Assembly: GCA_947625575.1 (NCBI GenBank) | Contig: CANQOV010000001.1 | Span: 1,498-65,497 of the forward strand | Reading direction: 5' to 3' | Origin: an uncultured Bacilli bacterium | GTDB taxonomy: Bacteria; Bacillota_I; Bacilli_A; RF39; UBA660 | DNA: 64,000 bases | Shown: positions 41,239-57,687 of the stretch, piece by piece | Numbering within the stretch: the first letter of the stretch is position 1 | Layout: every line of letters starts with the position of its first letter | The notes under the pieces: generated by a model | Told to the model about the DNA's origin: nothing | Seen by the model: only the letters and a program-made list of their open reading frames with translations | Databases searched by the model: none | Program-made: the position numbers and the translations under genes

Positions 41239-41252
41239 TAAATAAATTGTAA

Positions 41253-41300
41253 TTTAAATCGAGATTAAATAAGATGGATAATTGATAATCTCGATTTAAA
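41253..41300. repeat. Perfect 15-bp inverted repeat with 18-nt loop
   Basis: TTTAAATCGAGATTA (41253-41267), then aataagatggataattga, then TAATCTCGATTTAAA (41286-41300). Confidence 0.8.
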
Positions 41301-41483
41301 ATAGAATAAAATAAATTAATGTAATATTACTAATAATTAATGATTAATAGACTAATATTAATAAAAAACTATCACAAAAAAGAAATATCCACAACTTCCT
41401 ATAATTGATATTATGTTAACTTCTTAATAGACAATAAATCATATTTAATAAACCATTACTACTCTATTATATAAAACTATAAA

Positions 41484-41511
41484 AAATACAAGTATCTATT
41501 TACTTGTATTT
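41484..41511 (-). terminator. Rho-independent terminator of the minus-strand lipoprotein gene
   Basis: AAATACAAGTA-tctatt-TACTTGTATTT. On the minus strand it is followed by TTTTTATAG. It abuts the stop at 41515. Confidence 0.5.
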
Positions 41512-41514
41512 TTA

Positions 41515-41946
41515 TTATTGAAAATTAATAATATCTTTACTTGTAATATTAAACTTAATATTATTTTCAACTATACCTGAATAAAACAATATATCATAAG
41601 TTTGTTTCTTATCTACTATATATCTAAGTGTATAATTAATTGTATCCCCTTTTTTAATAATACTATTATTATTGACATACTGATTTACTAACTCTATTTC
41701 ATTAATATCATAAAATTTAAAATTATTATCTGCTGAAATAGTAACTGTATTATTTCGATAATTAGTTAACCTAAAGGTAAATTCTAATTCTTGATTTTCT
41801 CTTAATCTTACATCAACTAACTTAATTTTAATATCATCAATATAAGCTTCTTCATTAAATCCATAAACTGTCTTAAATGCTTTAGAACAACCTCCAAAAA
41901 GTAATAATAAACTAAATAAAACTAACAAATAACATATTTTTTTCAT
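41515..41946 (-). CDS. Putative lipoprotein (unknown function)
   Basis: Signal peptide with lipobox …LLLFGGCSKA… 143 aa. Confidence 0.4.
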   Translation of the reverse strand: MKKICYLLVLFSLLLLFGGCSKAFKTVYGFNEEAYIDDIKIKLVDVRLRENQELEFTFRLTNYRNNTVTISADNNFKFYDINEIELVNQYVNNNSIIKKGDTINYTLRYIVDKKQTYDILFYSGIVENNIKFNITSKDIINFQ

Positions 41947-41953
41947 ATCTACC

Positions 41954-44067: not shown

Positions 44068-44131
44068 ATTGCAAATATTTAACTTAACAACAAACTATTA
44101 CCATGTTAAAATATTAATAAAGGTGATTGTA

Positions 44132-45349
44132 ATGGAAGAGCCACTAGCAAAACGTTTAATACCTAAATGTCTAAATGACGTAATTGGTCAAAAACATTTA
44201 ATTGGTAAAGATAAAATTCTAACTAATTTAGTTAAAAATAAAAAAATATTTTCAATGATTTTATATGGTCCTCCGGGAATTGGTAAGACATCTATAGCCA
44301 ATGCTATTGCTAATGAATTAAATATGAACTGTCGTTTTCTAAATGCTACTATCCATAACAAAAAAGATTTAGATGTTGTAGTAGAAGAAGCTAAATTATA
44401 TGGTGGTATGATATTAGTAATGGACGAAATTCATCGTTTAAATAAAGATAAACAAGATTTATTATTACCTAATTTAGAAAGTGGACTAATAACTTTAATT
44501 GGTATGACTACTTCTAACCCTTATCACTCAATAAATCCTGCAATTAGAAGTAGATGTCACATCTTTGAACTAAAACCTTTAAAAGAAGATGAAATTATTG
44601 AGGGTTTAAATAAAGCAATCAAAACCCCTTATTTAAAAAATATAAAAATTAACAAAGAAACCATAAAATATATTGCTCAAAAATCAAAATTTGATTTAAG
44701 ATATGCCTATAATATATTAGAATTAGCTTATTATTTTAAAGAAAACCATGAAGTAACCAAAAAAACAATAGATGAAATAAATCAAAATCCTATTTCTATC
44801 CATGATAAAAACGAAGATGGCTACTATGACGTTTTATCAGGATTACAAAAATCAATAAGAGGTAGTGATGTTGATGCCTCCCTTTATTATTTAGGTCGTC
44901 TTTTATTAGCAGGAGATCTAGATAGCATAAATAGAAGATTAACTGTTATCTGTTATGAAGATATCGGTTTAGCTAATCCCAACATTGGTCCCAAACTTAA
45001 AGCTGTAATAGATGGAGCCCAACTAGTAGGATTACCAGAAGCTAGAATACTTTACTCAGAAATTGTAATAGAAATGGCTTTATCTCCTAAGTCCAACAGT
45101 GCTGTATTAGCTATTGATAAAGCACTAGAAGAAATAGAAACTAAAGATGAAGGGACTATCCCTCCTTATTTAAAAAGTCCCTATAATGATTATCAATACC
45201 CTCATAATTATCCATATAATCTTACTAAACAGCCCTATCTTCCTACTAACTTTCAAAATTCTAAATATTATTTACCCAAAGAATCTTCAACCTATGAAAA
45301 ATCTTTAAAAGAAAGAAAAGAAAAAATAGATAAGTATAGACAAAACTAA
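44132..45349 (+). CDS. rarA: Replication-associated recombination protein A (MgsA/RarA AAA+ ATPase)
   Basis: Walker A …LYGPPGIGKTS…, Walker B …ILVMDEIHRL…, and the MgsA C-terminal helical domain. Start chosen at ATG 44132 (MEEPLAKRL…) with RBS AGGTGA. The ORF track extends to 44069. Confidence 0.8.
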   Translation: MEEPLAKRLIPKCLNDVIGQKHLIGKDKILTNLVKNKKIFSMILYGPPGIGKTSIANAIANELNMNCRFLNATIHNKKDLDVVVEEAKLYGGMILVMDEIHRLNKDKQDLLLPNLESGLITLIGMTTSNPYHSINPAIRSRCHIFELKPLKEDEIIEGLNKAIKTPYLKNIKINKETIKYIAQKSKFDLRYAYNILELAYYFKENHEVTKKTIDEINQNPISIHDKNEDGYYDVLSGLQKSIRGSDVDASLYYLGRLLLAGDLDSINRRLTVICYEDIGLANPNIGPKLKAVIDGAQLVGLPEARILYSEIVIEMALSPKSNSAVLAIDKALEEIETKDEGTIPPYLKSPYNDYQYPHNYPYNLTKQPYLPTNFQNSKYYLPKESSTYEKSLKERKEKIDKYRQN

Positions 45350-45353
45350 CTAT

Positions 45354-46088
45354 CTATTTTTTTTCATTTATTACATCATTTATAACTTTACTAGCTAATA
45401 ATATTCCCGCACTTGCAGGAACAAAAACAGCTGAGCCAATAACTTTTTTAGAAGTCTTAATTGGTTTTTCTTTAGAATAACAACATAATATTTTTCCTTT
45501 AATATGATTATCACTTACCCATTTTCTAATCTTTTTAGCAAGTGGATCATAACTAGTTTTTCTAATATCACATATCTCTAACATACTAGGATCTAACCTA
45601 TTACCCATACCCATACAAGTATAAAATTTAATCTTTTTCTCTAAACACTTTAAAATAACTTCTTCTTTACAAGAAACATCATCACAACAATCAATTACAT
45701 AACTAACATCATCAAATAACATATAAACATTAGAACTATCTATTTTTAAATTAATAACTTCTACCTTACAATCTTTATTAATCTTTTTAATACGTTCTAA
45801 AAATAAATCAGTTTTATATTTTCCAATATTATCTAAATTACTAATAATTTGTCTATTTAAATTAGTAATATCAACTTTATCATAATCTACAATAACAATA
45901 CTTCCAACACCACTTCTAACTAAAGATTCAACAACATATCCTCCAACACCACCAAGACCTAAAACTACAACTTTAATCTTCTTTAGCTTTAAAATATTTT
46001 TATCTCCAATAAGTATTCTTAATCTTTCAAACTGTTCCATAATGCCTCCAAATAAGTCGAATATAACAAAAATACCACCATTTGTCAA
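45354..46088 (-). CDS. tcdA: ThiF/MoeB-family E1-like enzyme, probably tRNA threonylcarbamoyladenosine dehydratase (TcdA/CsdL)
   Basis: Rossmann motif …VVVLGLGGVGGYVVESL…VDYDKVDITNLNRQ… The true start is probably the internal MEQFERL…. Confidence 0.6.
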   Translation of the reverse strand: MTNGGIFVIFDLFGGIMEQFERLRILIGDKNILKLKKIKVVVLGLGGVGGYVVESLVRSGVGSIVIVDYDKVDITNLNRQIISNLDNIGKYKTDLFLERIKKINKDCKVEVINLKIDSSNVYMLFDDVSYVIDCCDDVSCKEEVILKCLEKKIKFYTCMGMGNRLDPSMLEICDIRKTSYDPLAKKIRKWVSDNHIKGKILCCYSKEKPIKTSKKVIGSAVFVPASAGILLASKVINDVINEKK

Positions 46089-46142
46089 ATAATTATAATT
46101 CTAGCTTAAAGAAAAAAAACATAATATTATCTAGGTGGCTTT

Positions 46143-47432
46143 ATGAAAGAAAAATTCATCAAATCAACAATAATACTAATAATTGGTGGTTTAATAACTA
46201 AAATCTTAAGTATGATTATTAGAATAACTATGACAAGAATTGTAGGAACTGAAGGAATTGGTTTATATATGTTAGTAATGCCAACTTTTTCTTTAGCAAT
46301 GACCATAGCAACTCTATCGCTTCCAGTAGCAATATCCAAAATTGTTGCAGAAAACACTAAAAATAATAAAAATGTTATTTTTTCTACCACCATAATAGCC
46401 TTAATCTTTAATATTATAATTATCTTAATAATGGTTTTATCATCTAAATTAATAGCTACAACTTTTTTAAAAAATGATAATCTATACTTTCCTATAATAG
46501 CTTGTGCCCTAACCCTACCCTTTATAACTATCTCCAGTATCATAAGAGGTTATTTTTATGGTAAACAAAAAATGTTACCCCATGTAATATCAAATATATT
46601 TGAACAGATAATAAGAATACTTTGTATCTATCTAATAATACCTCCACTTCTAAAAAATGGGATAATATATGCTGTTACAGGATTAATTTTAATAAATATC
46701 ATCAGTGAAGTATCATCAATTTTAATATTAATATTTTATCTTCCTAAAAACTTTAAAATTGTAAAAAATGATTTTAAAATAGAACAAAATACCCTAAAAG
46801 AAATAAAAGATATTTCCCTACCCACTACAACAGGTCGTATCATATCTTCACTAGGCTCTTTTCTAGAGCCAATAATCTTAACTTTTGTCTTATTTAAAAT
46901 TGGTTATAACAATGCTTACATAACTAATGAATATGGTATTATAACTGGTTATGTCCTACCTATGGTAACCATGCCCTCATTTTTAACTGGAGCAATATCA
47001 AGTGCTTTATTACCTGTAATATCTAATTTTTATGCCAAAGGTAAACTAAACTACGTCAAAAACAAAATAAAGCAAGCGACTTTACTATCACTTGCTATTG
47101 GTTTTCCCATAACTATTATCATGTTTTTATTCCCCGATGTTTGTCTTACCATTATCTTTGGAGCAAACGTAGGATCAAATTACTTAAAAGTTGCTTCCTT
47201 AATTTATTTTATCTCCTACATAAATAATCCGTTAACTAGTGCTTTACAAGCTATGAATAAATCTAAAATAGTCATGTTAACTAACTTTATAGCAATCATT
47301 ATAAAAACAGTACTATTATATTTTCTAACTTACTTAGATATTGGTATGTATAGTTTTTTAATAGCTTCATTTATCTCTATTAGTTATCTTACAATTCATC
47401 AATTAATTGCCGTTAAAAAAATCAAAAACTAA
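46143..47432 (+). CDS. MOP-superfamily polysaccharide/lipid-II flippase-like protein (Wzx/SpoVB/MurJ-like)
   Basis: 429 aa with about 12 TM segments, matching the polysaccharide-biosynthesis-protein family architecture. Confidence 0.55.
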   Translation: MKEKFIKSTIILIIGGLITKILSMIIRITMTRIVGTEGIGLYMLVMPTFSLAMTIATLSLPVAISKIVAENTKNNKNVIFSTTIIALIFNIIIILIMVLSSKLIATTFLKNDNLYFPIIACALTLPFITISSIIRGYFYGKQKMLPHVISNIFEQIIRILCIYLIIPPLLKNGIIYAVTGLILINIISEVSSILILIFYLPKNFKIVKNDFKIEQNTLKEIKDISLPTTTGRIISSLGSFLEPIILTFVLFKIGYNNAYITNEYGIITGYVLPMVTMPSFLTGAISSALLPVISNFYAKGKLNYVKNKIKQATLLSLAIGFPITIIMFLFPDVCLTIIFGANVGSNYLKVASLIYFISYINNPLTSALQAMNKSKIVMLTNFIAIIIKTVLLYFLTYLDIGMYSFLIASFISISYLTIHQLIAVKKIKN

Positions 47433-48089
47433 CTATAAATTATCAATAACTTCTTTTACAATCAAACTAGATAAATCACTAGCTTCCTTTTCAAAATCAT
47501 CTATGCCATCACAGTTATCCGAAACTACTCTTATAATTAAGAAAGGAATATTAGATACTTTACAAACTTGAGCAATACTAGCACTTTCCATATCAACCGC
47601 TAAAGCATGTGTTCTTTTGTAAATATCTTCTTTTGTTTTTATATCTGTAACAAAATTATCACCACTGGCAATCTTTCCTATATGAAGATTAACATTTTTA
47701 TTTTCAACAACTTTTCTAGCAATATTTAAAAGATCTTTATTTACCATAATTAAATTATTGCCAAAAGTCGCAACATCACATATTCTTTGAGGATAAAAAT
47801 CATGATAACACAAACTATCTGCCAAGACAAAATCTAATAAATTAATTTCACCTTTTAAAGCTCCACAACACCCACTATTGATAATCAAATCTGGTTTAAA
47901 ATTATCAATAATATACTGTGTCATATAACTAGAATTAACTTTGCCAATCCCACACTTTACAACATAAATAATATGTTCTAAATAATTAGCAGTATAAATA
48001 TCTACTAAAGAAGATACCTTATTCATTGAAAAAATATTAAGATAATTATCCAGCTCTTTATCCATAGCTCCCACTATAACAATTTTCAT
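47433..48089 (-). CDS. mtnN: 5'-methylthioadenosine/S-adenosylhomocysteine nucleosidase
   Basis: N-terminus MKIVIVGAMDKEL… and the PNP/MTAN fold motif …LIINSGCCGAL… 218 aa. Confidence 0.75.
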   Translation of the reverse strand: MKIVIVGAMDKELDNYLNIFSMNKVSSLVDIYTANYLEHIIYVVKCGIGKVNSSYMTQYIIDNFKPDLIINSGCCGALKGEINLLDFVLADSLCYHDFYPQRICDVATFGNNLIMVNKDLLNIARKVVENKNVNLHIGKIASGDNFVTDIKTKEDIYKRTHALAVDMESASIAQVCKVSNIPFLIIRVVSDNCDGIDDFEKEASDLSSLIVKEVIDNL

Positions 48090-48091
48090 AC

Positions 48092-49837
48092 TTAATCCTT
48101 TTTAATAGCTATTCCCAACTCATCAAGTTGTCTATTAGAAACAACGTTTGGAGCATCACTCATCAAATCACTTGCAGATAATGTCTTAGGAAAAGCTACC
48201 ACATCACGAATATTATCTGTACCTAATAAAAGCATAACTAATCTTTCAAGACCAATACCTACCCCACAGTGATTAGGAGCACCATACTTAAATGCTTCCA
48301 AAAAGAATCCAAACTTTTCTTTAGCTTCTTCCAAAGATAGTCCAATTGCTTCAAATACTTTACTTTGTAACTCTTCATTATGAATTCTAACTGAGCCACT
48401 AAGAAGTTCATATCCATTTAAAACTAAATCATATGCTCTTGAATAACAATTAGCCTTATCATTAATTAATTTATCGATATCATCTTCATTTGGAGCAGTA
48501 AAAGGATGATGTGCAGCCACATATCTATTTTCAGCTTCACTAAATTCAAACATTGGAAAATCAGTAACCCATAAAAAATTAAACTTGTTCTTATCGATAA
48601 GTCCTAACTCATGACCTAACTTAACTCTTAATGCTCCAAGTGAAGTCTTAACAATATCTTTTTTATCGGCAATCATTAAAACTAAATCTCCATTATTAAG
48701 ATTTAACTTCTTAATTAACAAAGCACTTTCACTATCAGTAATACTTTTAGCTAATGAGCCACTAAAACTATTATTTTCATATTTTAAATAAGCTAGTCCT
48801 TTAGCATTAAATACCTTTACATAATTAGTTAACTTATCAATATCCTTTCTTGATAAAGAAGCATTTTCCACAACAAGAGCATTAACTATTCCCTTATTAT
48901 CTAAAACACTTTTAAACATACTAATTTCTGTATCTTTAAAGACATCACTAATATCTTTAAGTTCCATATCAAAACGTGTATCAGGTTTATCAGATCCATA
49001 TCTATCCATGCACTCTTTATAACAAATACGTTCAAAACTAGATAAATCAATACCTCTAATATCTTTAAATACTTCTCTCATCAAACCTTCAACAACACTA
49101 AATATATCTTCTTCATTAGCAAAACTCATCTCAATATCAATCTGTGTAAATTCAGGTTGTCTATCAGCACGCAAATCCTCATCTCTAAAACAACGAGCTA
49201 TTTGAAAATATCTTTCAATACCTCCAATCATTAAAAGTTGCTTATATATCTGAGGTGATTGAGGTAAAGCATAAAACTTACCATTAAAAACACGAGATGG
49301 CACTAAATAATCACGAGCACCCTCTGGTGTACTCTTACATAAAATAGGTGTTTCAACTTCTATAAAACCTAACTTAGATAAATAATTTCTAGCAAGTAAA
49401 CAAACTTTATGTCTTACCAATAAATTATTTTGTAAAGTACTTCTTCTTAAATCTAAATAACGATACTTTAATCTAGTATCCTCTCCTGCAGTAGTATCTC
49501 CAAAAATATTAAAAGGTAATTCTTCACTCTTATTAATAACTTCTAAATCTAAAACTAATACTTCTATTTCTCCTGTAGGAATATTTAAATTCTTACTTTC
49601 TCTTATAGAAATCTTACCCTTAATGCGTATAACATACTCATTTTTTAAAGAATTAGCTAAATCATAGAACTTATCTTCTGGTCTAATAACTAACTGTATT
49701 ATGCCACTTCTATCTCTTAAATCAATAAAAATAAGTCCCCCTAAATCACGTTTTTTATTAACCCAACCATATAATTCTACAACTTCACCAACATTTTTTA
49801 AACTTAAATCAGTATTAAAATATTTTTTCATAAACAC
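48092..49837 (-). CDS. aspS: Aspartate--tRNA ligase
   Basis: OB-fold N-terminus, class II motifs (…FRDEDLRADRQPEFTQID…, …GGIERL…) and the bacterial-type insertion domain. 581 aa. Confidence 0.9.
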   Translation of the reverse strand: MFMKKYFNTDLSLKNVGEVVELYGWVNKKRDLGGLIFIDLRDRSGIIQLVIRPEDKFYDLANSLKNEYVIRIKGKISIRESKNLNIPTGEIEVLVLDLEVINKSEELPFNIFGDTTAGEDTRLKYRYLDLRRSTLQNNLLVRHKVCLLARNYLSKLGFIEVETPILCKSTPEGARDYLVPSRVFNGKFYALPQSPQIYKQLLMIGGIERYFQIARCFRDEDLRADRQPEFTQIDIEMSFANEEDIFSVVEGLMREVFKDIRGIDLSSFERICYKECMDRYGSDKPDTRFDMELKDISDVFKDTEISMFKSVLDNKGIVNALVVENASLSRKDIDKLTNYVKVFNAKGLAYLKYENNSFSGSLAKSITDSESALLIKKLNLNNGDLVLMIADKKDIVKTSLGALRVKLGHELGLIDKNKFNFLWVTDFPMFEFSEAENRYVAAHHPFTAPNEDDIDKLINDKANCYSRAYDLVLNGYELLSGSVRIHNEELQSKVFEAIGLSLEEAKEKFGFFLEAFKYGAPNHCGVGIGLERLVMLLLGTDNIRDVVAFPKTLSASDLMSDAPNVVSNRQLDELGIAIKKD

Positions 49838-50048
49838 TCCTTTAAATAAAAAAATTCCATGTATAAGGACGAATTACTTCGTGGTACCACCTTATTTCAT
49901 AGAATTACTATCTCTTTCTTTTAACGCAAGAAAACGGTTTAATTTATAGTTTGTTGTCTATTTCAATCTTCATATTTAAGGCTCTCAGCAACTACCTATT
50001 CTCTTTAAAATAATCCCATCTACTTCTTCAAACAATTAAACAATTTAT
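49838..50048 (-). promoter_or_regulatory. Putative T-box riboswitch leader of aspS
   Basis: Minus strand carries AATAAGGTGGTACCACG, matching the T-box consensus AAUUAGGGUGGUACCGCG at about 14 of 17 positions, 40 nt before the aspS RBS. An upstream AGAGA element and a GAC-A (Asp) candidate specifier are present. Leader length about 210 nt. Confidence 0.5.
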
Positions 50049-50054
50049 AAATAT

Positions 50055-50083
50055 ATCATACTTTAAATATTACCATTTGTCAA
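50055..50083 (-). promoter_or_regulatory. Putative sigma-A promoter of the T-box-aspS unit
   Basis: Minus strand TTGACA (50083-50078), 17-nt spacer, TATGAT (50060-50055). Confidence 0.4.
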
Positions 50084-50090
50084 ATAAGTA

Positions 50091-50972
50091 CTATCTTTTT
50101 CTAACAAAACTTTTCTTTTCCATATCACAAGATACATAACTAGGAATAATATCCTTAGAAAAATATGAATTTAAATACATAGCAACATTATTTTTATTAA
50201 AATCATCATCACATATACCATTATTATATTGAATACCTGCAAGCAAAACATCTTTACAAACTGCCCAGTCAGTATCAATATCCACTAACCAAAGAATATC
50301 ACTAACACTAAATAAATAATCTTTATCTTTAAAGATAACTAATCCACTAGGAAGTCTATAATATGTATTTTTATCTGTATTAAAAACAATATATTTCTTT
50401 CCATTAAATAAATATTCATCAAATTCTTTAGGTTGAAATGAAGTATTCTCTTTCCAATAAGGAACACTATCAACTGTATAAGTTTTATCTGTCTTTAATA
50501 AATTATTAACATAATACTCTTTCATAAAACTATTATATGTTTCTAAATCACTTACAAGCTTATCAACAAATTGTCCGTAAACTGTTTCTAAAACCCCATT
50601 TTCATTAAGATAAGGCTCTTTACAAGCATCTTTAATCATTGAATATCTAACAACTGGTCTAATACCATATCTTCTATAAGTCGCATCTTTTAAACTAAGT
50701 GCTAAATCAGCTCCATTACAATAAACATAATCTTTTAGATTAGCCCCTAACCAATAAGAAGCTGATACCATATCTAATTTTTGATTATAAAGAGTAAATG
50801 CTCCAGTTGCACAAGCAAAATCACTAGGTTTTGCTGCATAAGATATCTTATTAAAAAAACTTAATTTTTCATCGCCACGAACTTGTTCTGGCTTTAATAA
50901 TGTAAAATTTTCCACGTATTTCTCCTTTAAAACTGCACTACCCATTTTACCAAACTTTTCTCTAATAATCAA
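50091..50972 (-). CDS. Hypothetical protein (unknown function), translationally coupled to murI
   Basis: 293-aa ORF overlapping the murI stop by 4 nt. No recognisable motif. Confidence 0.4.
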   Translation of the reverse strand: MIIREKFGKMGSAVLKEKYVENFTLLKPEQVRGDEKLSFFNKISYAAKPSDFACATGAFTLYNQKLDMVSASYWLGANLKDYVYCNGADLALSLKDATYRRYGIRPVVRYSMIKDACKEPYLNENGVLETVYGQFVDKLVSDLETYNSFMKEYYVNNLLKTDKTYTVDSVPYWKENTSFQPKEFDEYLFNGKKYIVFNTDKNTYYRLPSGLVIFKDKDYLFSVSDILWLVDIDTDWAVCKDVLLAGIQYNNGICDDDFNKNNVAMYLNSYFSKDIIPSYVSCDMEKKSFVRKR

Positions 50973-51706
50973 GAAATATTTAAAATTTTATAAAATCTTT
51001 CTTCTTTTTCTTTAGAACAAGCAGAATCAATAAAAGTAATTTCAAGATTTCCTTTCATCTTTTTAGTTACTTTTCTTTCTAATTGTTTAGCCACTCCATA
51101 TCCACTATCAAAAAAGTTAACATCACCAAAAATCTCTTTTAAAATATCTTTAATAAGTGGATAATGTGTACAACCCAAAACAATATTATCAATCTTATCA
51201 TAATCTTTAAACATAAGAGATAAATATTGTTTAATTTTCACTTTATTACCCTCTTCAATCAACTCGGCAAGACCAACACAAGGACAAATTATAGTCTTAC
51301 CATTATTATACTTATCGTATAATAGATGAAACTTTTCACTTTCAATAGTCCCTTTTGTAGCCATAACTAATGTCTTTCCATTAAAATTATGATCATAGAC
51401 CATTTTATATGCTGGAACTGTTGCAATAAAAGTAATATCTTTAAAATCTTTTCTTAATCTATCAACACATAATACACTTGCTGTATTACAAGCAATAACA
51501 ATAGTCTTACAACCATTATTAATAAGAAAATTAACTATCCTAGATACAATTTGATATAAAGAAACAACATCTTTATCGCCATAAGGATTATTAAAAGAAT
51601 CACTGTAATATAGAAATTTCTCATGAGGTAACAACTTAATAATTTCCTTTAAAATTGTTACTCCACCAATACCAGAATCAAAAACACCTATCATAAAATA
51701 CTCCAA
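50969..51706 (-). CDS. murI: Glutamate racemase
   Basis: …IGVFDSGIGGVT… and …IVIACNTAS…GCTHYP… catalytic Cys blocks. Confidence 0.85.
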   Translation of the reverse strand: MEYFMIGVFDSGIGGVTILKEIIKLLPHEKFLYYSDSFNNPYGDKDVVSLYQIVSRIVNFLINNGCKTIVIACNTASVLCVDRLRKDFKDITFIATVPAYKMVYDHNFNGKTLVMATKGTIESEKFHLLYDKYNNGKTIICPCVGLAELIEEGNKVKIKQYLSLMFKDYDKIDNIVLGCTHYPLIKDILKEIFGDVNFFDSGYGVAKQLERKVTKKMKGNLEITFIDSACSKEKEERFYKILNIS

Positions 51707-51732: not shown

Positions 51733-53487
51733 TTATTCCAAAATTGCTTTTATTCTTCTTACGCCACTAGAACAAGCTTCTTCTTTTATTATTTTAAAGT
51801 GTCCAAGACAACTAGTATTTTGAACGTGTGGGCCACCACATAATTCTTTGGAAACATCTCCAATAAAATAAACCGTAACAACATCGCCATACTTATCTAA
51901 AAACATTGCTTCTGCTCCAATATTAAGTGCTTCTTCTTTTTTCATCGTCTTAACTACAACTGGTAAAGCCTCTTTAATATATTGGTTTACTAGCTCTTCA
52001 GTCTTTTTAATTTCTAAATCAGTCATCTTTCTATCCCAAGAAAAATCAAATCTCATCCTCTCAGTAGTAATATTACTACCTTTTTGATGAACACTATCTC
52101 CTAATACTTTCTTTAAAGCTGCATTAAGTAAATGTGTTGCTGTATGATATTTAATACTAATTTCACTGTGATCTCCAAGACCTCCAGCAAACTTCTTAGA
52201 TGATCCAACTCTAGATTTTTCTTGATGTTCACGAAACTTTTCATGGAATCCTTCTACATCAACATCTAAAGATCTTTCACTAGCCATTTCACAAGTAAGT
52301 TCAATTGGAAAACCAAAAGTATCATATAAATGAAAAGCTAAATCTTTAGGAATTACTTTAATAGAACTAGAAACTGCTTTTTCAAACTCTTTTATACCTT
52401 TTTCTAAAGTACGAGCAAACTTAATCTTCTCTTGTCTTAAAACCTCTTTAATTACTTCTTTATTTCTAGCTAACTCTTCATAATAATCTTTATAATTATC
52501 TATTACAATCTGTGCAATATCTTCTAAAAAATCACTATTTAAATCAATATTTAAATTCTTAGCATGACGTATTGCTCTTCTAATTAATCTTCTTAAAATA
52601 TAACCTTGATCAGTATTAGATGGTTTAATTCCAACATCATCACCTGCAATAAAAACAGCACTTCTAACATGATCTGCAATTATACGCATACTTCTTTCAT
52701 TACCCTCATAACTAAGATGAGAAATCTCTTCTATCTTTTTAATAATGTCTATCCAAACAGAAGACTTATAACTATCATAACAACCCTCTAAAACTGCTAC
52801 TACTCTTTCATAGCCCATACCAGTATCAACATTTTTTTGTTTTAAAGGAACAAAACTGCCATTAGACGTCTTCTCATACTGCATAAAAACATTATTCCAA
52901 ATCTCAACCCAATTCTTATCATTAACATCAAAACTACTAGGAACATCCTCACCCCGATAATAAAATATCTCCGTATCAGGTCCACAAGGTCCCACCACAT
53001 TAGCAGGTCCCCACCAATTATCATCTTCTCCTAAAGCAACAATTTTTTTACTATCTATTCCAAGATTTAACCAACATTCTTTCGTTTCATCATCGAAAGG
53101 AACAAACTCATTTCCGCGAAAGACACTTACCCCCAATCTTTCAACAGGAATATTCAAAACTTTAGTTAAAAATTCGAACGAATAACTAACAGCTTCCTTT
53201 TTAAAATAATCTCCTAAGCTCCAATTACCAAGCATTTCAAAAAAAGTATGATGAGTTGTATCGCCAACAGAATCCAAATCTGTCAATCTAATACATTTCT
53301 GATAATCAGTTAATCTTTTTCCTAAAGGGTGTTCTTTTCCCATTAAATAAGGCACCAAAGGTTGCATACCAGCAGTATTAAATAAAACACTAGGATCATT
53401 TTCCGGTATTAATGAAGCACTAGGTATAAACGCATGACCTTTACTAACAAAAAAATCAATATATAATTTTTTTAAATTTTCTTTCAC
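51733..53487 (-). CDS. alaS: Compact alanine--tRNA ligase (catalytic plus editing domains; lacks beta-barrel linker and C-Ala domain)
   Basis: N-terminus …FFVSKGHAFIPSASLIPENDPSVLFNTAGMQ…HHTFFEMLGNWSLGDYFK… is the AlaRS class II core. Editing motifs HTATHLLNAAL and CGGPHV. Only 584 aa against about 870 for canonical AlaRS. Confidence 0.65.
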   Translation of the reverse strand: MKENLKKLYIDFFVSKGHAFIPSASLIPENDPSVLFNTAGMQPLVPYLMGKEHPLGKRLTDYQKCIRLTDLDSVGDTTHHTFFEMLGNWSLGDYFKKEAVSYSFEFLTKVLNIPVERLGVSVFRGNEFVPFDDETKECWLNLGIDSKKIVALGEDDNWWGPANVVGPCGPDTEIFYYRGEDVPSSFDVNDKNWVEIWNNVFMQYEKTSNGSFVPLKQKNVDTGMGYERVVAVLEGCYDSYKSSVWIDIIKKIEEISHLSYEGNERSMRIIADHVRSAVFIAGDDVGIKPSNTDQGYILRRLIRRAIRHAKNLNIDLNSDFLEDIAQIVIDNYKDYYEELARNKEVIKEVLRQEKIKFARTLEKGIKEFEKAVSSSIKVIPKDLAFHLYDTFGFPIELTCEMASERSLDVDVEGFHEKFREHQEKSRVGSSKKFAGGLGDHSEISIKYHTATHLLNAALKKVLGDSVHQKGSNITTERMRFDFSWDRKMTDLEIKKTEELVNQYIKEALPVVVKTMKKEEALNIGAEAMFLDKYGDVVTVYFIGDVSKELCGGPHVQNTSCLGHFKIIKEEACSSGVRRIKAILE

Positions 53488-54017
53488 TTTATCACCTCGC
53501 TAGCAAACTCTGTTGCTTTAGTTTTTAGATTATCTAAATCTTTATCATTATGAATAACATAATCAAAATCAGTATAATTATCTAAAGCCACCTCAGTATA
53601 AGCTTTTTGTTGTTCTAAACTAAGTGAAGTAACAAAATTATCTCTAACAATCTTAATAGTAAGAGCCTCATAGTTTTTCTTAATTTCTTCAATTTCAATT
53701 TCTTCTCTTACATCACTTATAATAGCAACATCAAAAAAATAACTTAAAACCTTTATATCATCAACTATTCTTTTGACATTAAAATATTTATCAACCTTAC
53801 CTCTTATAATATCAGTACCTAAATAATTTAAAAAATCTCTTGGTTTATCTTCATCATTTCCACTCCAACCAAAATACTTTTTAGTATAGTACTTAATATA
53901 ATCTCCAAAACCTAATCTACAAACACGAATATTTTTATTTTTTAATTCTTCTTCTAAAAATGTAGCAAAACTATCTTTGCCACTTCTTGCTTTACCTGCA
54001 ATTAAAACTACTTTCAT
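53484..54017 (-). CDS. P-loop kinase resembling phage T4-type deoxynucleoside-monophosphate kinase
   Basis: N-terminus MKVVLIAGKARSGKDSFATF… resembles the T4 gp1 MKLIFLSGVKRSGKDTTADF. 177 aa. Confidence 0.4.
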   Translation of the reverse strand: MKVVLIAGKARSGKDSFATFLEEELKNKNIRVCRLGFGDYIKYYTKKYFGWSGNDEDKPRDFLNYLGTDIIRGKVDKYFNVKRIVDDIKVLSYFFDVAIISDVREEIEIEEIKKNYEALTIKIVRDNFVTSLSLEQQKAYTEVALDNYTDFDYVIHNDKDLDNLKTKATEFASEVIK

Positions 54018-54018
54018 C

Positions 54019-55200
54019 TTAACTTCTACTCTCTATCTTCTTTTTACTATTTTTTCTTACTTCCCCTTGTTTTATCTTAGCAATAAATTCATATTTCTCA
54101 TCAAAATAATAAATAACCATCTTTAAAAATGCTAAAACTGGTGTTGCAATAACCATACCTAAAATTCCAAAGAAATAACCAAAAATTAATAATCCAACCA
54201 TAATAGTAACAGGATGTAACTTCATTGTTTTTCCATATATTAAAGGCTCAAGAACAATATTATCAATCTGTTGAACTACTAAAGCAACAACTGCTGCTAA
54301 AATACCAGTAAGAGGACTTATTGTAAATCCCACCATTACACAAATTGCTCCACCAATCCATGGTCCAATATAAGGAATTACATTAGTAATACCACAGATA
54401 ATACCAAATAGTAATGGTGAAGGTAAACTAATCAAAGAATATCCAATAGATGAAATAATTGAAACTGCAAACGCTATCAATAACATACCTTGAATAAAGT
54501 TTCTAAATGCTCCACTAAAACGCGAAACCATTGCCCTAATACTTTCATGAAATTTTTTAGGAATAAATTCCATAATTCCATCAATATTATCAAAATCTAA
54601 TAATAAGTAGAAACCAACAACTAATCCCAATAAAAATGTGCCAACACTAGAAATAGTTGAACTTAAAAAGTTAACAATTGCTGTAGGTAATGAATTAGTA
54701 AGACTAATACCTATATTCTCGATAGTATCGTATATTCCACTTTCAACCCCACTCATATCAAGACCTAAAGAACTAAATTTACTAAACATATTATGAATAA
54801 AGTCAGAAACCTCTAAAAATAATGACGGAATCATCTTTGCAAATTCATTAATTTGGTTGATCAACATTGGTCCAATTAAAGAACATATCAATATTAAAAA
54901 TACTAAAAATGCAAAAAAGACAAACACTGTAGCTAAAGTTCTTTTAATCTTATGTTTTTCCATCCATGATACTATAGGATCTAAAAGCCAAGCAAATATT
55001 AATCCTATAAAAAATGGTGCACAGACAGCTAAAACATTACCAATCATTTTAAATATACCAGATACTTTACCTAAAACAAAGGCAATTAAAATAACTCCAA
55101 TAATTACAATAACATAAAATATTTTTAAAATCTTATTTGATAATGTAATAGTCTCATTAAGTTTTTCATAATCAATTTTCTTTTTATCCATTATAGCCAC
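54019..55200 (-). CDS. AI-2E family transporter (PerM/YhhT-like)
   Basis: 393-aa polytopic membrane protein with the AI-2E-like TM arrangement and a conserved central region. Confidence 0.6.
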   Translation of the reverse strand: MAIMDKKKIDYEKLNETITLSNKILKIFYVIVIIGVILIAFVLGKVSGIFKMIGNVLAVCAPFFIGLIFAWLLDPIVSWMEKHKIKRTLATVFVFFAFLVFLILICSLIGPMLINQINEFAKMIPSLFLEVSDFIHNMFSKFSSLGLDMSGVESGIYDTIENIGISLTNSLPTAIVNFLSSTISSVGTFLLGLVVGFYLLLDFDNIDGIMEFIPKKFHESIRAMVSRFSGAFRNFIQGMLLIAFAVSIISSIGYSLISLPSPLLFGIICGITNVIPYIGPWIGGAICVMVGFTISPLTGILAAVVALVVQQIDNIVLEPLIYGKTMKLHPVTIMVGLLIFGYFFGILGMVIATPVLAFLKMVIYYFDEKYEFIAKIKQGEVRKNSKKKIESRS

Positions 55201-55509: not shown

Positions 55510-57687
55510 CTACGAATTAATACATGAATTAAGTAATTTCTTTAAATTAGTCTTTCTTTCATCTTCACGATGATTATTAATTCCTTTAGCAAAACTATAA
55601 ATATCGCCAATTAAAATTAATTTCTTTTTCGCTCTTGTAATTGCAGTATATAAAAGTTTTCGATACAACATTATTCCATATTGAGGTAAAATTGGTAAAA
55701 TAACCACATCAAACTCACTGCCTTGAGATTTATGAACACTTATAACATAACCTAATTTCAAATTAGAAAAATTACTTAAAGTAAGTCTAACTATATTACC
55801 GTCAAAATCCACCAACATATACTTTTCTTTAGAATTACCAATTTCTAAAATCGTTCCCACATCGCCATTATAAACATTTTCATCAGGCATATTAACTACA
55901 TTTAAAACTCTATCATTTTCTCTATATGTAACTGCATTATGAATTATTTCTTTTTTATTTCTTGCTTTAGGATTAACAATCGATTGAACAAAATAATTAA
56001 GTTCATCAATTCCATTATCTCCTCGATAAATTGGAGCCATAATTTGTAAACTATCATAATTTAAATTATAATCATCTAAAACTTCTTTTAATTTATCTTT
56101 TAAATTATCAAAATTTGCCGGAATAAATAACAAATCATCTTTTTCATTAAATATATTGCTATCATACAAATCATGATTAATCTGATATGCTAACATATTA
56201 ATATTAGATTCTTCTTTTTGTCGATATAACTTTTCTAATTTAATAGTTAAAACAAGATCACTATCAATTAAATCTTTTAATATTTGACCACACCCTACAC
56301 TAGGTAATTGATTATAATCTCCAATCAAAATAATCTTTGTCATAGGCCTAAGACCTAAAAGTAAATTATGAAATAAATATATATCTAACATACTAACTTC
56401 ATCGATAATAACTAACTTAACATCACTTTTATTACTTTCATTGACTAAAAAAGTATCTTCATCTTTATTCCATTTTAAAAATCTATGGATTGTACTAGCA
56501 GGAAAATTAGTTTGTTCCTGTATTCTTTTACAAGCTCTTCCCGTTGGTGCAAGAAGAGCAACTTCGTTAACAAAAGTCCTAAAATCAATTTTATAAATAT
56601 TTTGATACAAAGAACAAATTCCCTTAATAACAGTAGTCTTACCAACACCCGGTCCTCCAGTAATAATCATAATATTATTTTCAATTGCTCCACATATAGC
56701 ATTAAATTGTTCTTTATTATAATTAATATTATATAATCTTTCCAAATCTTTAATATCACTAGAAGAAACCTTTACATTACTCTTACTCTTTGTTAAATCT
56801 ACAACTCTTTTAGCAATATTTTCTAAAGCCACATACATCTCTTTTAATAAAATATTATTATCATCTAAAACAAGTATATCAAGATCTAACAACCTATTAA
56901 TACCTTCCATAATTAAATCACTATTATTAATATTTAAAGCTCTATTAGTATAATAAATAACCTCATCATACGATAAATAACTATTACCAATATTTTGATT
57001 AACTTCATTAATAGCATAAACTATTCCTGCGTCAATTCTTCTACTATCATCATCTTTAATATCAAATTTACTACGTAATTTATCAACTCTTGTAAAAGTA
57101 ATCTCCTTTATATCTCTAACTAAAGTATAAGGATCAGTATTAATAATATCCATAGTGTTAGCTTTATACTCTTTATAAACTCTTAAAGCCTCTTTCATAC
57201 TAAAACCAATCTTTGTTAAATTTACAATAACTTCATAACTATTTCGATATTTAGATAATGCTTCATAGATAGTATCAATATTTTCTTTTGTAAGAGTAGG
57301 CACTAACCAAAGACTATCTTTATTTTCTAATATTACTTTTAAAGCATCTTCTCCTAAAACTTCCACTATCTTAGAAGCTTTTCTCTTACCAATCTTATGA
57401 AATAAATTACTAGATAAAAAATCAATTATCTTATCTTTTTCTTTAGGTAAAACTATTTCATAAGAGTCTACTTGAAACTGTTCGCCATACCTATCGTGTA
57501 TAACAATATTACCATAGAAAGTATACAAATCATGCTCGTTTAAAGAATCAAAATAACCCGTAAAAGTAATTGTTTTATTCTTTAATCTTACAATATCACT
57601 ACTTGTATCTTTAACTTTAAATAGCCCTACTACATAAGAAGAAGACTTAAAAATACATTGTTTAAAATTTCCCGTAATTTGTTGCAT
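55510..57687 (-). CDS. recD2: ATP-dependent RecD-like DNA helicase (RecD2)
   Basis: SF1B helicase motifs …ITGGPGVGKTT…, …LVIIDEVSMLD…, the SH3-like C-terminal …VSVHKSQGSEF… and an N-terminal HhH region. 725 aa. Confidence 0.85.
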   Translation of the reverse strand: MQQITGNFKQCIFKSSSYVVGLFKVKDTSSDIVRLKNKTITFTGYFDSLNEHDLYTFYGNIVIHDRYGEQFQVDSYEIVLPKEKDKIIDFLSSNLFHKIGKRKASKIVEVLGEDALKVILENKDSLWLVPTLTKENIDTIYEALSKYRNSYEVIVNLTKIGFSMKEALRVYKEYKANTMDIINTDPYTLVRDIKEITFTRVDKLRSKFDIKDDDSRRIDAGIVYAINEVNQNIGNSYLSYDEVIYYTNRALNINNSDLIMEGINRLLDLDILVLDDNNILLKEMYVALENIAKRVVDLTKSKSNVKVSSSDIKDLERLYNINYNKEQFNAICGAIENNIMIITGGPGVGKTTVIKGICSLYQNIYKIDFRTFVNEVALLAPTGRACKRIQEQTNFPASTIHRFLKWNKDEDTFLVNESNKSDVKLVIIDEVSMLDIYLFHNLLLGLRPMTKIILIGDYNQLPSVGCGQILKDLIDSDLVLTIKLEKLYRQKEESNINMLAYQINHDLYDSNIFNEKDDLLFIPANFDNLKDKLKEVLDDYNLNYDSLQIMAPIYRGDNGIDELNYFVQSIVNPKARNKKEIIHNAVTYRENDRVLNVVNMPDENVYNGDVGTILEIGNSKEKYMLVDFDGNIVRLTLSNFSNLKLGYVISVHKSQGSEFDVVILPILPQYGIMLYRKLLYTAITRAKKKLILIGDIYSFAKGINNHREDERKTNLKKLLNSCINS

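What the first reader, a model, noticed from the sequence alone, without database searches (positions are those of the whole stretch)
51733..54017. Compact 584-aa alanyl-tRNA synthetase co-transcribed with a T4-type dNMP-kinase-like gene, murI and an unknown ORF
The AlaRS has the class II catalytic core and the editing HxxxH / CGGxH motifs. It is about 290 residues shorter than canonical bacterial AlaRS. By alignment to E. coli AlaS, the beta-barrel linker and the entire C-Ala domain are missing. Its start overlaps the preceding gene, so it has no T-box leader of its own, although aspS nearby has one. This may be a naturally minimised AlaRS or a second specialised paralogue.
Basis: partly seen in the sequence, partly recalled or inferred. 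Interest (0 to 1): 0.55.

Follow-up and report, generated by a model that had tools for sequence, protein, structure and literature searches.

The report
Known short-type alanyl-tRNA synthetase ("small-AlaRS")
The gene is real and intact, but it is an ordinary member of a widespread, already catalogued class of short alanyl-tRNA synthetases that naturally lack two domains of the textbook enzyme, so it is not an oddity of this genome.

Summary
Window 51733-53487 (-) encodes an intact 584-aa AlaRS. It has the aminoacylation domain (aa 1-~432), a ~10-residue flexible linker and an AlaX-S-like editing core (aa ~442-584). The beta-barrel and the whole C-Ala domain are absent, which makes it 292 aa shorter than E. 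coli AlaS.

It is neither a pseudogene nor an assembly artefact. All catalytic, G3:U70-recognition and zinc editing-site residues are present. The stop is TAA, 26 nt before murI. An independent assembly encodes the identical protein. All 79 complete homologues, from Bacilli, Clostridia, Spirochaetes, Lentisphaerae, CPR bacteria and DPANN archaea, end within 13 residues of the same point.

It is not new. It matches NCBIfam NF002436 (PRK01584, "alanine--tRNA ligase", 595 positions) end to end at 815.6 bits (cutoff 529). A 2023 preprint names exactly this architecture "small-AlaRS".

The operon spacing, the T4-like dNMP-kinase homology and the aspS T-box (below Rfam's threshold but significant) are also confirmed.

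Whether this genome also has a full-length alaS could not be tested. I judge the gene to be the housekeeping AlaRS. Interest is low. The one residual point is that this class appears biochemically uncharacterised, although AlaRS papers still describe the four-domain prototype as conserved throughout biology.

The parts
51733..53487 (-). alaS, small-type alanyl-tRNA synthetase, 584 aa (GTG start, TAA stop)
   Evidence: ORF. NCBIfam NF002436 815.6 bits, aa 3-584 on model positions 4-593 of 595. Pfam tRNA-synt_2c plus tRNA_SAD. An identical protein occurs in a second assembly, L001.
52192..53487 (-). Aminoacylation domain (catalytic core plus tRNA-recognition/ATL fold), aa 1-~432
   Evidence: It aligns to the crystallised AlaRS catalytic fragments 9jc7, 1riq and 3hxu at E ~1e-99 to 1e-89. 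Foldseek gives TM(target) 0.83-0.87 and rmsd ~3 A. R67, D221, G223, R228, N291 and D389 are conserved.
52165..52206 (-). Short flexible linker replacing the beta-barrel, aa ~428-441
   Evidence: AlphaFold pLDDT is below 50 for aa 428-435. About 105 E. coli residues are gapped here in alignment A1.
51736..52164 (-). AlaX-S-like editing core, aa ~442-584, with zinc/editing site H448, H452, C550, H554, plus Q468 and R577
   Evidence: NCBIfam AlaXM profile positions 94-233 only. PDB AlaX-S 1v4p/1v7o at E ~5e-9. Foldseek covers the whole of AlaX-S (TMt 0.81-0.84) but only ~142 of 216 residues of AlaX-M. The site residues are 80/80 conserved.
53492..53498 (-). Shine-Dalgarno GAGGTGA for alaS, inside the 3' end of the upstream gene
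   Evidence: Sequence read directly.
53484..54017 (-). Compact T4-gp1-like dNMP kinase homologue, 177 aa, P-loop GKARSGKDS. Its stop overlaps the alaS start.
   Evidence: Pfam PF21448 56.5 bits. PHROG 139 E 9e-32. 1DEK E 7e-4. It lies upstream of alaS in 11 of the 18 closest relatives.
54019..55200 (-). AI-2E family transporter, probable first gene of the operon (1-nt gap to the next gene, 309-nt gap upstream)
   Evidence: Pfam PF01594 205 bits. Spacing. The AI-2E - DNMK - alaS order recurs in relatives.
50969..51706 (-). murI, glutamate racemase, 26 nt downstream of alaS
   Evidence: TIGR00067 164.8 bits against cutoff 146.65. It is not found next to alaS in the 80 related loci.
50091..50972 (-). 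Orphan 293-aa ORF overlapping the murI stop by 4 nt
   Evidence: No Pfam, NCBIfam or PHROG hit. Only one distant homologue (31% identity) in the 5.8-billion-protein search.
49862..50039 (-). T-box leader of aspS, with a GAC-A candidate Asp specifier. It marks the start of the next transcription unit.
   Evidence: Rfam RF00230 73.7 bits, E 4.2e-15, below gathering score 93. Sequence read.
50055..50083 (-). Promoter-like site TTGACA-17-TATGAT in front of the aspS T-box
   Evidence: Best consensus match in the region, 11 of 12. This is a consensus match only.

Best explanation
This is the housekeeping alanyl-tRNA synthetase of a low-GC gut Bacilli/"Tenericutes"-like bacterium, and it belongs to the known small-AlaRS class (NCBIfam NF002436 / PRK01584).

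Its N-terminal aminoacylation domain activates alanine and charges tRNA-Ala by reading the G3:U70 pair in the acceptor stem, using N291 and D389 (E. coli N303 and D400). A ~10-residue flexible linker tethers a minimal, AlaX-S-like zinc editing core (H448, H452, C550, H554, Q468, R577) that hydrolyses Ser- or Gly-tRNA-Ala.

It lacks the beta-barrel and C-Ala. It therefore most likely works as a monomer that contacts only the acceptor end of the tRNA, without the elbow contact and C-Ala-mediated dimerisation of the canonical enzyme.

It is translated by coupling to the upstream dNMP-kinase-like gene, within an AI-2E - DNMK - alaS - murI - ORF293 unit, and it has no T-box.

Shown here: the architecture, residue conservation, family membership, distribution and gene spacing. 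Inferred: enzymatic activity, monomeric state, acceptor-stem-only binding, co-transcription, and that it is the only AlaRS in the genome.
For: Family membership: end-to-end match to NF002436 at 815.6 bits (cutoff 529), and to TIGR00344 alaS at 613.6 bits (cutoff 457).

Architecture: the two modules superpose on solved structures, the catalytic fragments at TMt 0.83-0.87 and AlaX-S at TMt 0.81-0.84. Model mean pLDDT is 84.4, with only the linker at 428-435 disordered between them.

Residue conservation in 80 short forms from many phyla: R67, D221, G223 and R228 are 80/80. H448, H452, C550, H554 and Q468 are 80/80. R577 is 78/80.

Stable architecture: 79 of 79 complete genes end 0-13 aa after the editing core, with a median length of 594 aa.

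Abundance: 8000 or more homologues, and the best 120 are all 579-591 aa. At least 600 matches in species-representative genomes. 61 of the best 150 representatives at 50% clustering are 560-660 aa.

Vertical inheritance: the AI-2E - DNMK - alaS order recurs across the closest species-level relatives (DNMK upstream of alaS in 11 of 18), which suggests a core gene inherited vertically.

Assembly: an identical protein occurs in an independent assembly.

Literature: the preprint 10.1101/2023.05.29.542759 describes the same three-domain "small-AlaRS". The Tupanvirus mini-AlaRS shows that an AlaRS without C-Ala can charge tRNA-Ala efficiently (PMC10036535).

Substrate: one tRNA-Ala found near a small AlaRS (L047) is canonical, with G3:U70 and a normal elbow.
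Against: No assay exists for this class in the literature I could search.

I could not scan the rest of this genome, so a second full-length alaS is not excluded.

In E. coli and C. elegans, deleting C-Ala sharply lowers tRNA binding and activity (PMC10036535 and PMC8887476). A compensating feature is therefore expected, and I did not identify one.

N291 and D389 equivalents are not universal in the class (68/80 and 52/80), although both are present here.

Co-transcription rests only on gene spacing and the absence of predicted terminators.
Confidence: 0.8

Rival explanations
1. It is a second, specialised AlaRS paralogue that coexists with a canonical full-length alaS elsewhere in the genome. 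It might, for example, be dedicated to tmRNA, or to supplying Ala-tRNA for cell-wall synthesis, given the neighbouring murI.
For: The rest of the genome could not be examined. alaS lies next to murI. The class shows signs of horizontal transfer across phyla and into archaea, which is compatible with an acquired extra copy.
Against: The murI adjacency is not seen in any of the 80 related loci. The gene is present with conserved upstream synteny in many related species. It occurs in lineages with very small genomes, such as CPR and DPANN, where duplicate synthetases are unusual. NCBIfam curates the family as an equivalog of alanine--tRNA ligase. From my own knowledge, not tested here, Borrelia and Treponema carry only a ~594-aa AlaRS of this kind. 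No other AlaRS-like sequence is present in the 64-kb window or within 6 kb of alaS in the 80 loci.
Confidence: 0.12
2. It is a truncated pseudogene remnant or an assembly or frameshift artefact of a normal ~875-aa alaS.
For: Only the length difference itself.
Against: The missing barrel is an internal deletion shared by all relatives, not a 3' truncation. The TAA stop is followed 26 nt later by murI, so there is no room for a C-terminal domain, and no C-Ala-like or barrel-like sequence occurs anywhere in the window. All motifs are intact. An identical protein is found in a second assembly. 79 of 79 homologues end at the same point.
Confidence: 0.01
3. It is an AlaRS-derived protein that no longer aminoacylates tRNA, for example an editing-only or regulatory protein.
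For: No biochemical data exist for the class.
Against: Active-site residues for ATP, alanine and the tRNA acceptor stem are invariant or nearly so across phyla. Identity is 38-40% over the entire catalytic fragment of characterised enzymes. A free-standing AlaX would be enough for editing alone.
Confidence: 0.03

Closest known systems
small-AlaRS subgroup (bioRxiv 10.1101/2023.05.29.542759) = NCBIfam NF002436 / PRK01584 "alanine--tRNA ligase" (~595 aa)
   Same: It has the identical three-domain architecture: catalytic, tRNA-recognition (ATL) and editing domains, with no cradle-loop barrel and no C-Ala. It matches the profile end to end, far above the cutoff.
   Different: Nothing architectural differs. 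The preprint lists CPR, DPANN, Thermoplasmatota and Asgard. This copy and its closest relatives are gut Bacilli and Clostridia MAGs, and the class also occurs in Spirochaetes and Lentisphaerae, so the host range is wider than the preprint's text states.
Canonical bacterial AlaRS (E. coli AlaS, 875-876 aa; TIGR00344)
   Same: The aminoacylation domain is 38% identical over E. coli 3-440 and the editing core 47% identical over 564-698. The same catalytic, G3:U70-recognition and zinc editing residues are present. It scores above the TIGR00344 cutoff.
   Different: It lacks the ~105-aa beta-barrel between the two modules and the ~175-aa coiled-coil plus C-Ala (DHHA1-like) domain, which binds the tRNA elbow and mediates dimerisation. 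It has no T-box leader, unlike alaS of many Firmicutes (PMC4695836 title).
Tupanvirus mini-AlaRS (PMC10036535)
   Same: It is a natural AlaRS without C-Ala, and it shows that acceptor-stem-only recognition can support efficient charging.
   Different: The viral enzyme also lacks the editing domain and the conserved Asn/Asp pair. The window protein keeps both.
C. elegans mitochondrial AlaRS (PMC8887476)
   Same: It is a natural AlaRS that has lost most of C-Ala.
   Different: There the loss accompanies T-arm-less, elbow-less tRNAs. Here the one tRNA-Ala seen near a small AlaRS is canonical (n=1). The nematode enzyme also retains a ~54-aa C-Ala remnant.
AlaX-S trans-editing protein (Pyrococcus horikoshii PH0574; PDB 1V4P, 1V7O, 1WNU)
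   Same: The C-terminal 143 aa have the same minimal editing fold without the barrel (Foldseek TMt 0.81-0.84; sequence E ~5e-9).
   Different: AlaX-S is free-standing. Here the module is fused to an aminoacylation domain.

Membership tests
small-AlaRS / NCBIfam NF002436 (PRK01584) | Whole-protein score above the curated cutoff, matched end to end | tested here: met
   815.6 bits against cutoff 529. aa 3-584 fall on model positions 4-593 of 595.
small-AlaRS / NCBIfam NF002436 (PRK01584) | Catalytic, tRNA-recognition (ATL) and editing domains present | tested here: met
   Pfam tRNA-synt_2c and tRNA_SAD. PDB sequence and fold matches.
small-AlaRS / NCBIfam NF002436 (PRK01584) | Cradle-loop (beta) barrel absent | tested here: met
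   E. coli ~455-560 is gapped, with no tblastn hit. AlaXM profile positions 1-93 are unmatched. Only ~142 of 216 AlaX-M residues superpose.
small-AlaRS / NCBIfam NF002436 (PRK01584) | C-Ala domain absent | tested here: met
   No PF02272 hit. The protein ends 3 residues after the ...GVRRIKA motif that closes the editing core (...GVRRIKAILE). TAA stop, with murI 26 nt later.
Canonical bacterial AlaRS (TIGR00344 alaS) | Class II active site: motif 2 Arg, motif 3 GxGxGxER, Ala-binding Asp | tested here: met
   R67, D221, G223, G225, E227 and R228 are present. R67, D221, G223 and R228 are 80/80 in short forms, G225 79/80 and E227 77/80. TIGR00344 613.6 bits against cutoff 457.
Canonical bacterial AlaRS (TIGR00344 alaS) | G3:U70-recognition Asn/Asp pair (E. 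coli N303/D400) | tested here: met
   N291 and D389 are present. Their role is taken from the literature (PMC10036535).
Canonical bacterial AlaRS (TIGR00344 alaS) | Four-domain prototype including C-Ala and the barrel | tested here: not met
   Both are absent.
Canonical bacterial AlaRS (TIGR00344 alaS) | Alanylation of tRNA-Ala and hydrolysis of Ser-tRNA-Ala | not testable with these tools
   This needs enzyme assays or complementation.
AlaX trans-editing proteins | Free-standing editing domain without an aminoacylation domain | tested here: not met
   The editing core is fused to a complete aminoacylation domain. The AlaXM equivalog scores 77.9 bits against cutoff 300.
T4 gp1-type dNMP kinase (Pfam PF21448) - upstream gene | Score above the Pfam gathering threshold, and a P-loop | tested here: met
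   56.5 bits against 27.1, but only model positions 131-232. PHROG 139 E 9e-32 over aa 1-175. GKARSGKDS is read in the translation. Substrate specificity was not tested.
T-box leader (RF00230) - aspS | Score at or above the Rfam gathering threshold | tested here: not met
   73.7 bits against 93, at E 4.2e-15 with a full-length model match and an intact T-box sequence (GGUGGUACCACG). I treat it as a real but divergent T-box.

The most novel reading that the evidence does not exclude
The short enzyme is a second, specialised AlaRS kept alongside a canonical one. It might serve tmRNA, or supply tRNA-dependent cell-wall alanylation, as hinted by the adjacent murI. Alternatively, the translationally coupled dNMP-kinase-like protein, which lies upstream of alaS in 11 of the 18 closest relatives, might act with it in trans to compensate for the missing C-Ala. 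Nothing here supports either idea beyond gene adjacency, but the rest of the genome could not be inspected.
Probability: 0.07. Interest if true: 0.65.

Novelty: already known. Interest (0 to 1): 0.2.

Why it matters
For this window it matters little. It is a correctly predicted housekeeping gene of a catalogued family.

The class itself has some value. Recent AlaRS papers still state that the four-domain prototype is conserved throughout biology and that C-Ala is the major tRNA-binding module (PMC8887476, PMC10036535). Yet a barrel-less, C-Ala-less enzyme is apparently the working AlaRS in hundreds of bacterial and some archaeal species, including walled gut Firmicutes with ordinary tRNAs.

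These natural enzymes would let one test directly what C-Ala and the barrel contribute. That point has already been raised in print (the 2023 preprint), so it is not a discovery of this scan.

Tried and rejected
1. Family signature. I suspected that the 4-aa shorter motif-2 loop (E. coli GGKH missing) marks the small class. This was rejected: 53 of 73 long-form representatives have the same short loop.

2. Clean monophyly of short forms. In a crude NJ tree all 141 short forms fall in one clade, but four genuine long forms (P0159, P0162, P0171, P0172) nest with them. One origin versus several cannot be decided with this method.

3. Positional orthology with a canonical alaS. I looked up the contigs of those four long forms, hoping to see the RecD2 / AI-2E neighbourhood. 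They come from unrelated environmental, CPR-like contexts and share no synteny. My recollection that B. subtilis has alaS near an AI-2E-family gene, recD2, aspS, a ThiF-family gene and rarA, as this window does, could not be verified with the tools. It is not used as evidence.

4. Second alaS. No tool lists the other contigs of this MAG, and only the window and 6-kb flanks of 80 loci could be checked; these were negative.

5. Literature. Searches for a biochemical study of the short bacterial form found nothing relevant (spirochetes, Borrelia BB0220, Patescibacteria).

6. tRNA-Ala. There are no tRNA genes in the window, and only one tRNA-Ala in 60 related loci.

7. ORF293. A homology search gave one weak relative only.
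Full report
**What is there.** Window 51733-53487 on the minus strand is a 584-codon ORF with a GTG start. The GTG overlaps the TGA stop of the upstream 177-aa gene (GTGA). A GAGGTGA Shine-Dalgarno sequence lies 4-5 nt upstream. The ORF ends in TAA, and only 26 nt separate it from the next gene, murI. It has 8 TGG codons and no internal TGA, so the standard bacterial code applies. The region is 25-30% G+C, where a 584-codon open frame cannot be chance.

**Domain content.**
- Pfam finds tRNA-synt_2c over aa 5-433, but only on model positions 2-436 of 552, and tRNA_SAD over aa 537-579. There is no DHHA1/C-Ala hit.
- I fetched E. coli AlaS and aligned it (A1). E. coli residues 3-440 (38% identity) and 564-698 (47% identity) are matched. 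About 455-560 (the beta-barrel) and 700-876 (coiled coil plus C-Ala) have no counterpart in the gene, elsewhere in the 64-kb window, or within 6 kb of alaS in 80 related loci. The protein is 292 residues shorter than E. coli AlaS.
- The NCBIfam AlaX-M profile matches only from position 94 of 234, that is, without its N-terminal barrel.
- An AlphaFold model (mean pLDDT 84.4) shows two well-folded modules. The only disordered segment between them is aa 428-435.
- Foldseek superposes aa 1-~430 on the crystallised catalytic fragments of A. aeolicus, E. coli and human AlaRS (TM 0.83-0.87). It superposes the last ~150 aa on the whole of AlaX-S from P. horikoshii (TM 0.81-0.84), but on only ~142 of 216 residues of AlaX-M.

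**Intactness.** I reconstructed 79 complete homologues from species-representative genomes and aligned them with E. coli AlaS.
- The motif 2 arginine (R67), the alanine-binding Asp (D221), and G223 and R228 of motif 3 are 80/80 (G225 79/80, E227 77/80).
- The zinc editing site (H448, H452, C550, H554) and Q468 are 80/80. R577 (E. coli R693) is 78/80.
- The acceptor-stem readers N291 and D389 (E. coli N303 and D400) are present here, and in 68 and 52 of the 80 respectively.
- All 79 complete genes stop 0-13 residues after the ...GVRRIKA motif that closes the editing core. Median length is 594 aa.
- The identical 584-aa protein is encoded on an independently assembled ENA contig with the same DNMK-alaS-murI order.
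- Pseudogene, frameshift and misassembly are thus excluded.

**It is a known family.**
- The protein matches NCBIfam NF002436 (PRK01584), an equivalog model of 595 positions named alanine--tRNA ligase. The match runs from end to end at 815.6 bits against a cutoff of 529.
- A search of 5.8 billion proteins saturated at 8000 hits, and the best 120 are all 579-591 aa at 66-100% identity.
- Among representatives at 50% clustering, 61 of the best 150 are 560-660 aa single-stretch matches, and they outrank most ~875-aa forms.
The 80 best loci come from gut Bacilli, "Tenericutes", Erysipelotrichaceae and Clostridia MAGs (62-68% identity). More distant ones come from Treponema, Sphaerochaetaceae, Pleomorphochaeta, Lentisphaeria, Victivallis, Kiritimatiellae, many CPR/Patescibacteria and DPANN archaea (48-56% identity).
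- The preprint 10.1101/2023.05.29.542759 describes exactly this subgroup, with catalytic, ATL and editing domains but no cradle-loop barrel and no C-Ala. It calls the subgroup small-AlaRS and proposes horizontal transfer to archaea.
- I found no biochemical study of the class. The experimental AlaRS literature still describes the four-domain prototype as conserved throughout biology (PMC8887476, PMC10036535).

**How it most likely works.**
- Inferred from the conserved residues and from what is established for AlaRS fragments: the N-terminal domain activates alanine and selects tRNA-Ala through G3:U70.
- The tethered AlaX-S-like core clears Ser- and Gly-tRNA-Ala. By my own recollection of Beebe et al. 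2008, the editing domain recognises G3:U70 independently through the arginine equivalent to R577.
- Without C-Ala the enzyme should be monomeric and should not touch the tRNA elbow.
- An AlaRS can work this way, as shown for the Tupanvirus mini-AlaRS, which charges tRNA-Ala and a microhelix efficiently (PMC10036535).
- The one tRNA-Ala found near a small AlaRS (L047) has G3:U70, GG in the D loop and a normal T loop. The loss of C-Ala therefore does not seem to accompany elbow-less tRNAs, in contrast to C. elegans mitochondria (PMC8887476). This rests on a single case.

**Sole enzyme or paralogue.** I could not test this directly, because no tool gives access to the other contigs of this genome. 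Several observations argue for a housekeeping role:
- conserved upstream synteny across the closest species, with DNMK upstream of alaS in 11 of 18 and AI-2E also present in most of these;
- presence in lineages with minimal genomes;
- curation of the family as an equivalog;
- my own knowledge, untested here, that Borrelia and Treponema have only a ~594-aa AlaRS.

I put the paralogue reading at about 0.12.

**Context.**
- Gene gaps on the minus strand are: RecD2 -309- AI-2E -1- DNMK -(-4)- alaS -26- murI -(-4)- ORF293 -253- aspS -2- MTA nucleosidase.
- No convincing terminator is predicted inside the AI-2E to ORF293 block. The best promoter match in the region, TTGACA-17-TATGAT, sits just before the aspS leader. 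Co-transcription of AI-2E-DNMK-alaS-murI-ORF293 is therefore plausible, but it is only inferred.
- The upstream gene is a compact homologue of T4 gp1 dNMP kinase (Pfam 56.5 bits, PHROG 139 E 9e-32, 1DEK E 7e-4).
- murI next to alaS is not seen in the related loci.
- ORF293 is an orphan.
- The aspS T-box is real but divergent: 73.7 bits, E 4e-15, below the gathering score of 93. It has an intact T-box sequence and a GAC-A candidate specifier.
- No T-box precedes alaS or the operon.

**Evolution (tentative).**
- Over the shared columns, short forms are a median 50% identical to each other and 43% identical to long forms.
- In a crude NJ tree all short forms fall in one clade, which also contains four genuine long forms from CPR-like environmental contigs.
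- This fits one or few origins followed by wide horizontal spread, but it is not a rigorous phylogeny.
- The shorter motif-2 loop relative to E. coli is not specific to the class.

**Verdict.** The interpretation as a natural minimal AlaRS is supported, and the pseudogene and artefact readings are refuted. The gene is an ordinary member of an already catalogued and published class. Interest is low (0.2), and novelty is "already known".

Noticed in passing
window 41394-41421 (+), within the 41239-41953 intergenic gap: ACTTCCTATAATTGATATTATGTTAACT matches 24 of 28 bases of the B. subtilis dif site as I remember it. It sits exactly where gene orientation switches from the + strand to the - strand and where GC skew flips from positive to negative. 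The window probably spans the replication terminus. A 3-mismatch search with the B. subtilis sequence found nothing, because there are 4 mismatches.
   Followed up: partly
window 50091-50972 (-): A 293-aa ORF is translationally coupled to murI (4-nt overlap). It is an orphan, with no Pfam, NCBIfam or PHROG hit and only one distant homologue (31% identity, 310 aa) among 5.8 billion proteins.
   Followed up: partly
window 49862-50039 (-): The aspS T-box leader scores 73.7 bits, below Rfam's gathering score of 93, so a default Rfam scan of the window reports no RNA families at all. It is a divergent, AT-rich T-box lacking part of the stem II region in the alignment.
   Followed up: partly
window 53484-54017 (-) and loci L003, L006, L008, L009, L011, L014, L015, L016, L019: A compact 177-aa homologue of T4 dNMP kinase lacks roughly 100 residues of the phage enzyme (T4 gp1 residues ~23-127 are unmatched). 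It is conserved immediately upstream of the small alaS in many related gut Bacilli, often after an AI-2E transporter gene. No functional link is known.
   Followed up: partly
L085 7915-9280: On a 1.33-Mb contig that carries a 589-aa small AlaRS, a bAvd-like gene and a reverse transcriptase (RVT_1) lie just upstream of alaS. This looks like a diversity-generating retroelement.
   Followed up: no
proteins P0214, P0192, P0252, P0139, P0141: Some cluster representatives look like small AlaRS with additions. P0214 (834 aa) has a ~200-aa insertion at window position 374. P0192 (773 aa) and P0252 (780 aa) have ~190-aa C-terminal extensions. P0139 and P0141 (~780 aa) match in two pieces. These may be inteins, fusions or gene-call artefacts.
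   Followed up: no
window 44069-49837 and 55510-57687: The window carries RarA/MgsA, a ThiF-family protein, MTA nucleosidase, AspRS and RecD2 around alaS. This resembles my recollection of the B. subtilis aspS/alaS/recD2 region. If so, the small alaS may occupy the ancestral alaS neighbourhood. I could not verify this with the tools.
   Followed up: no
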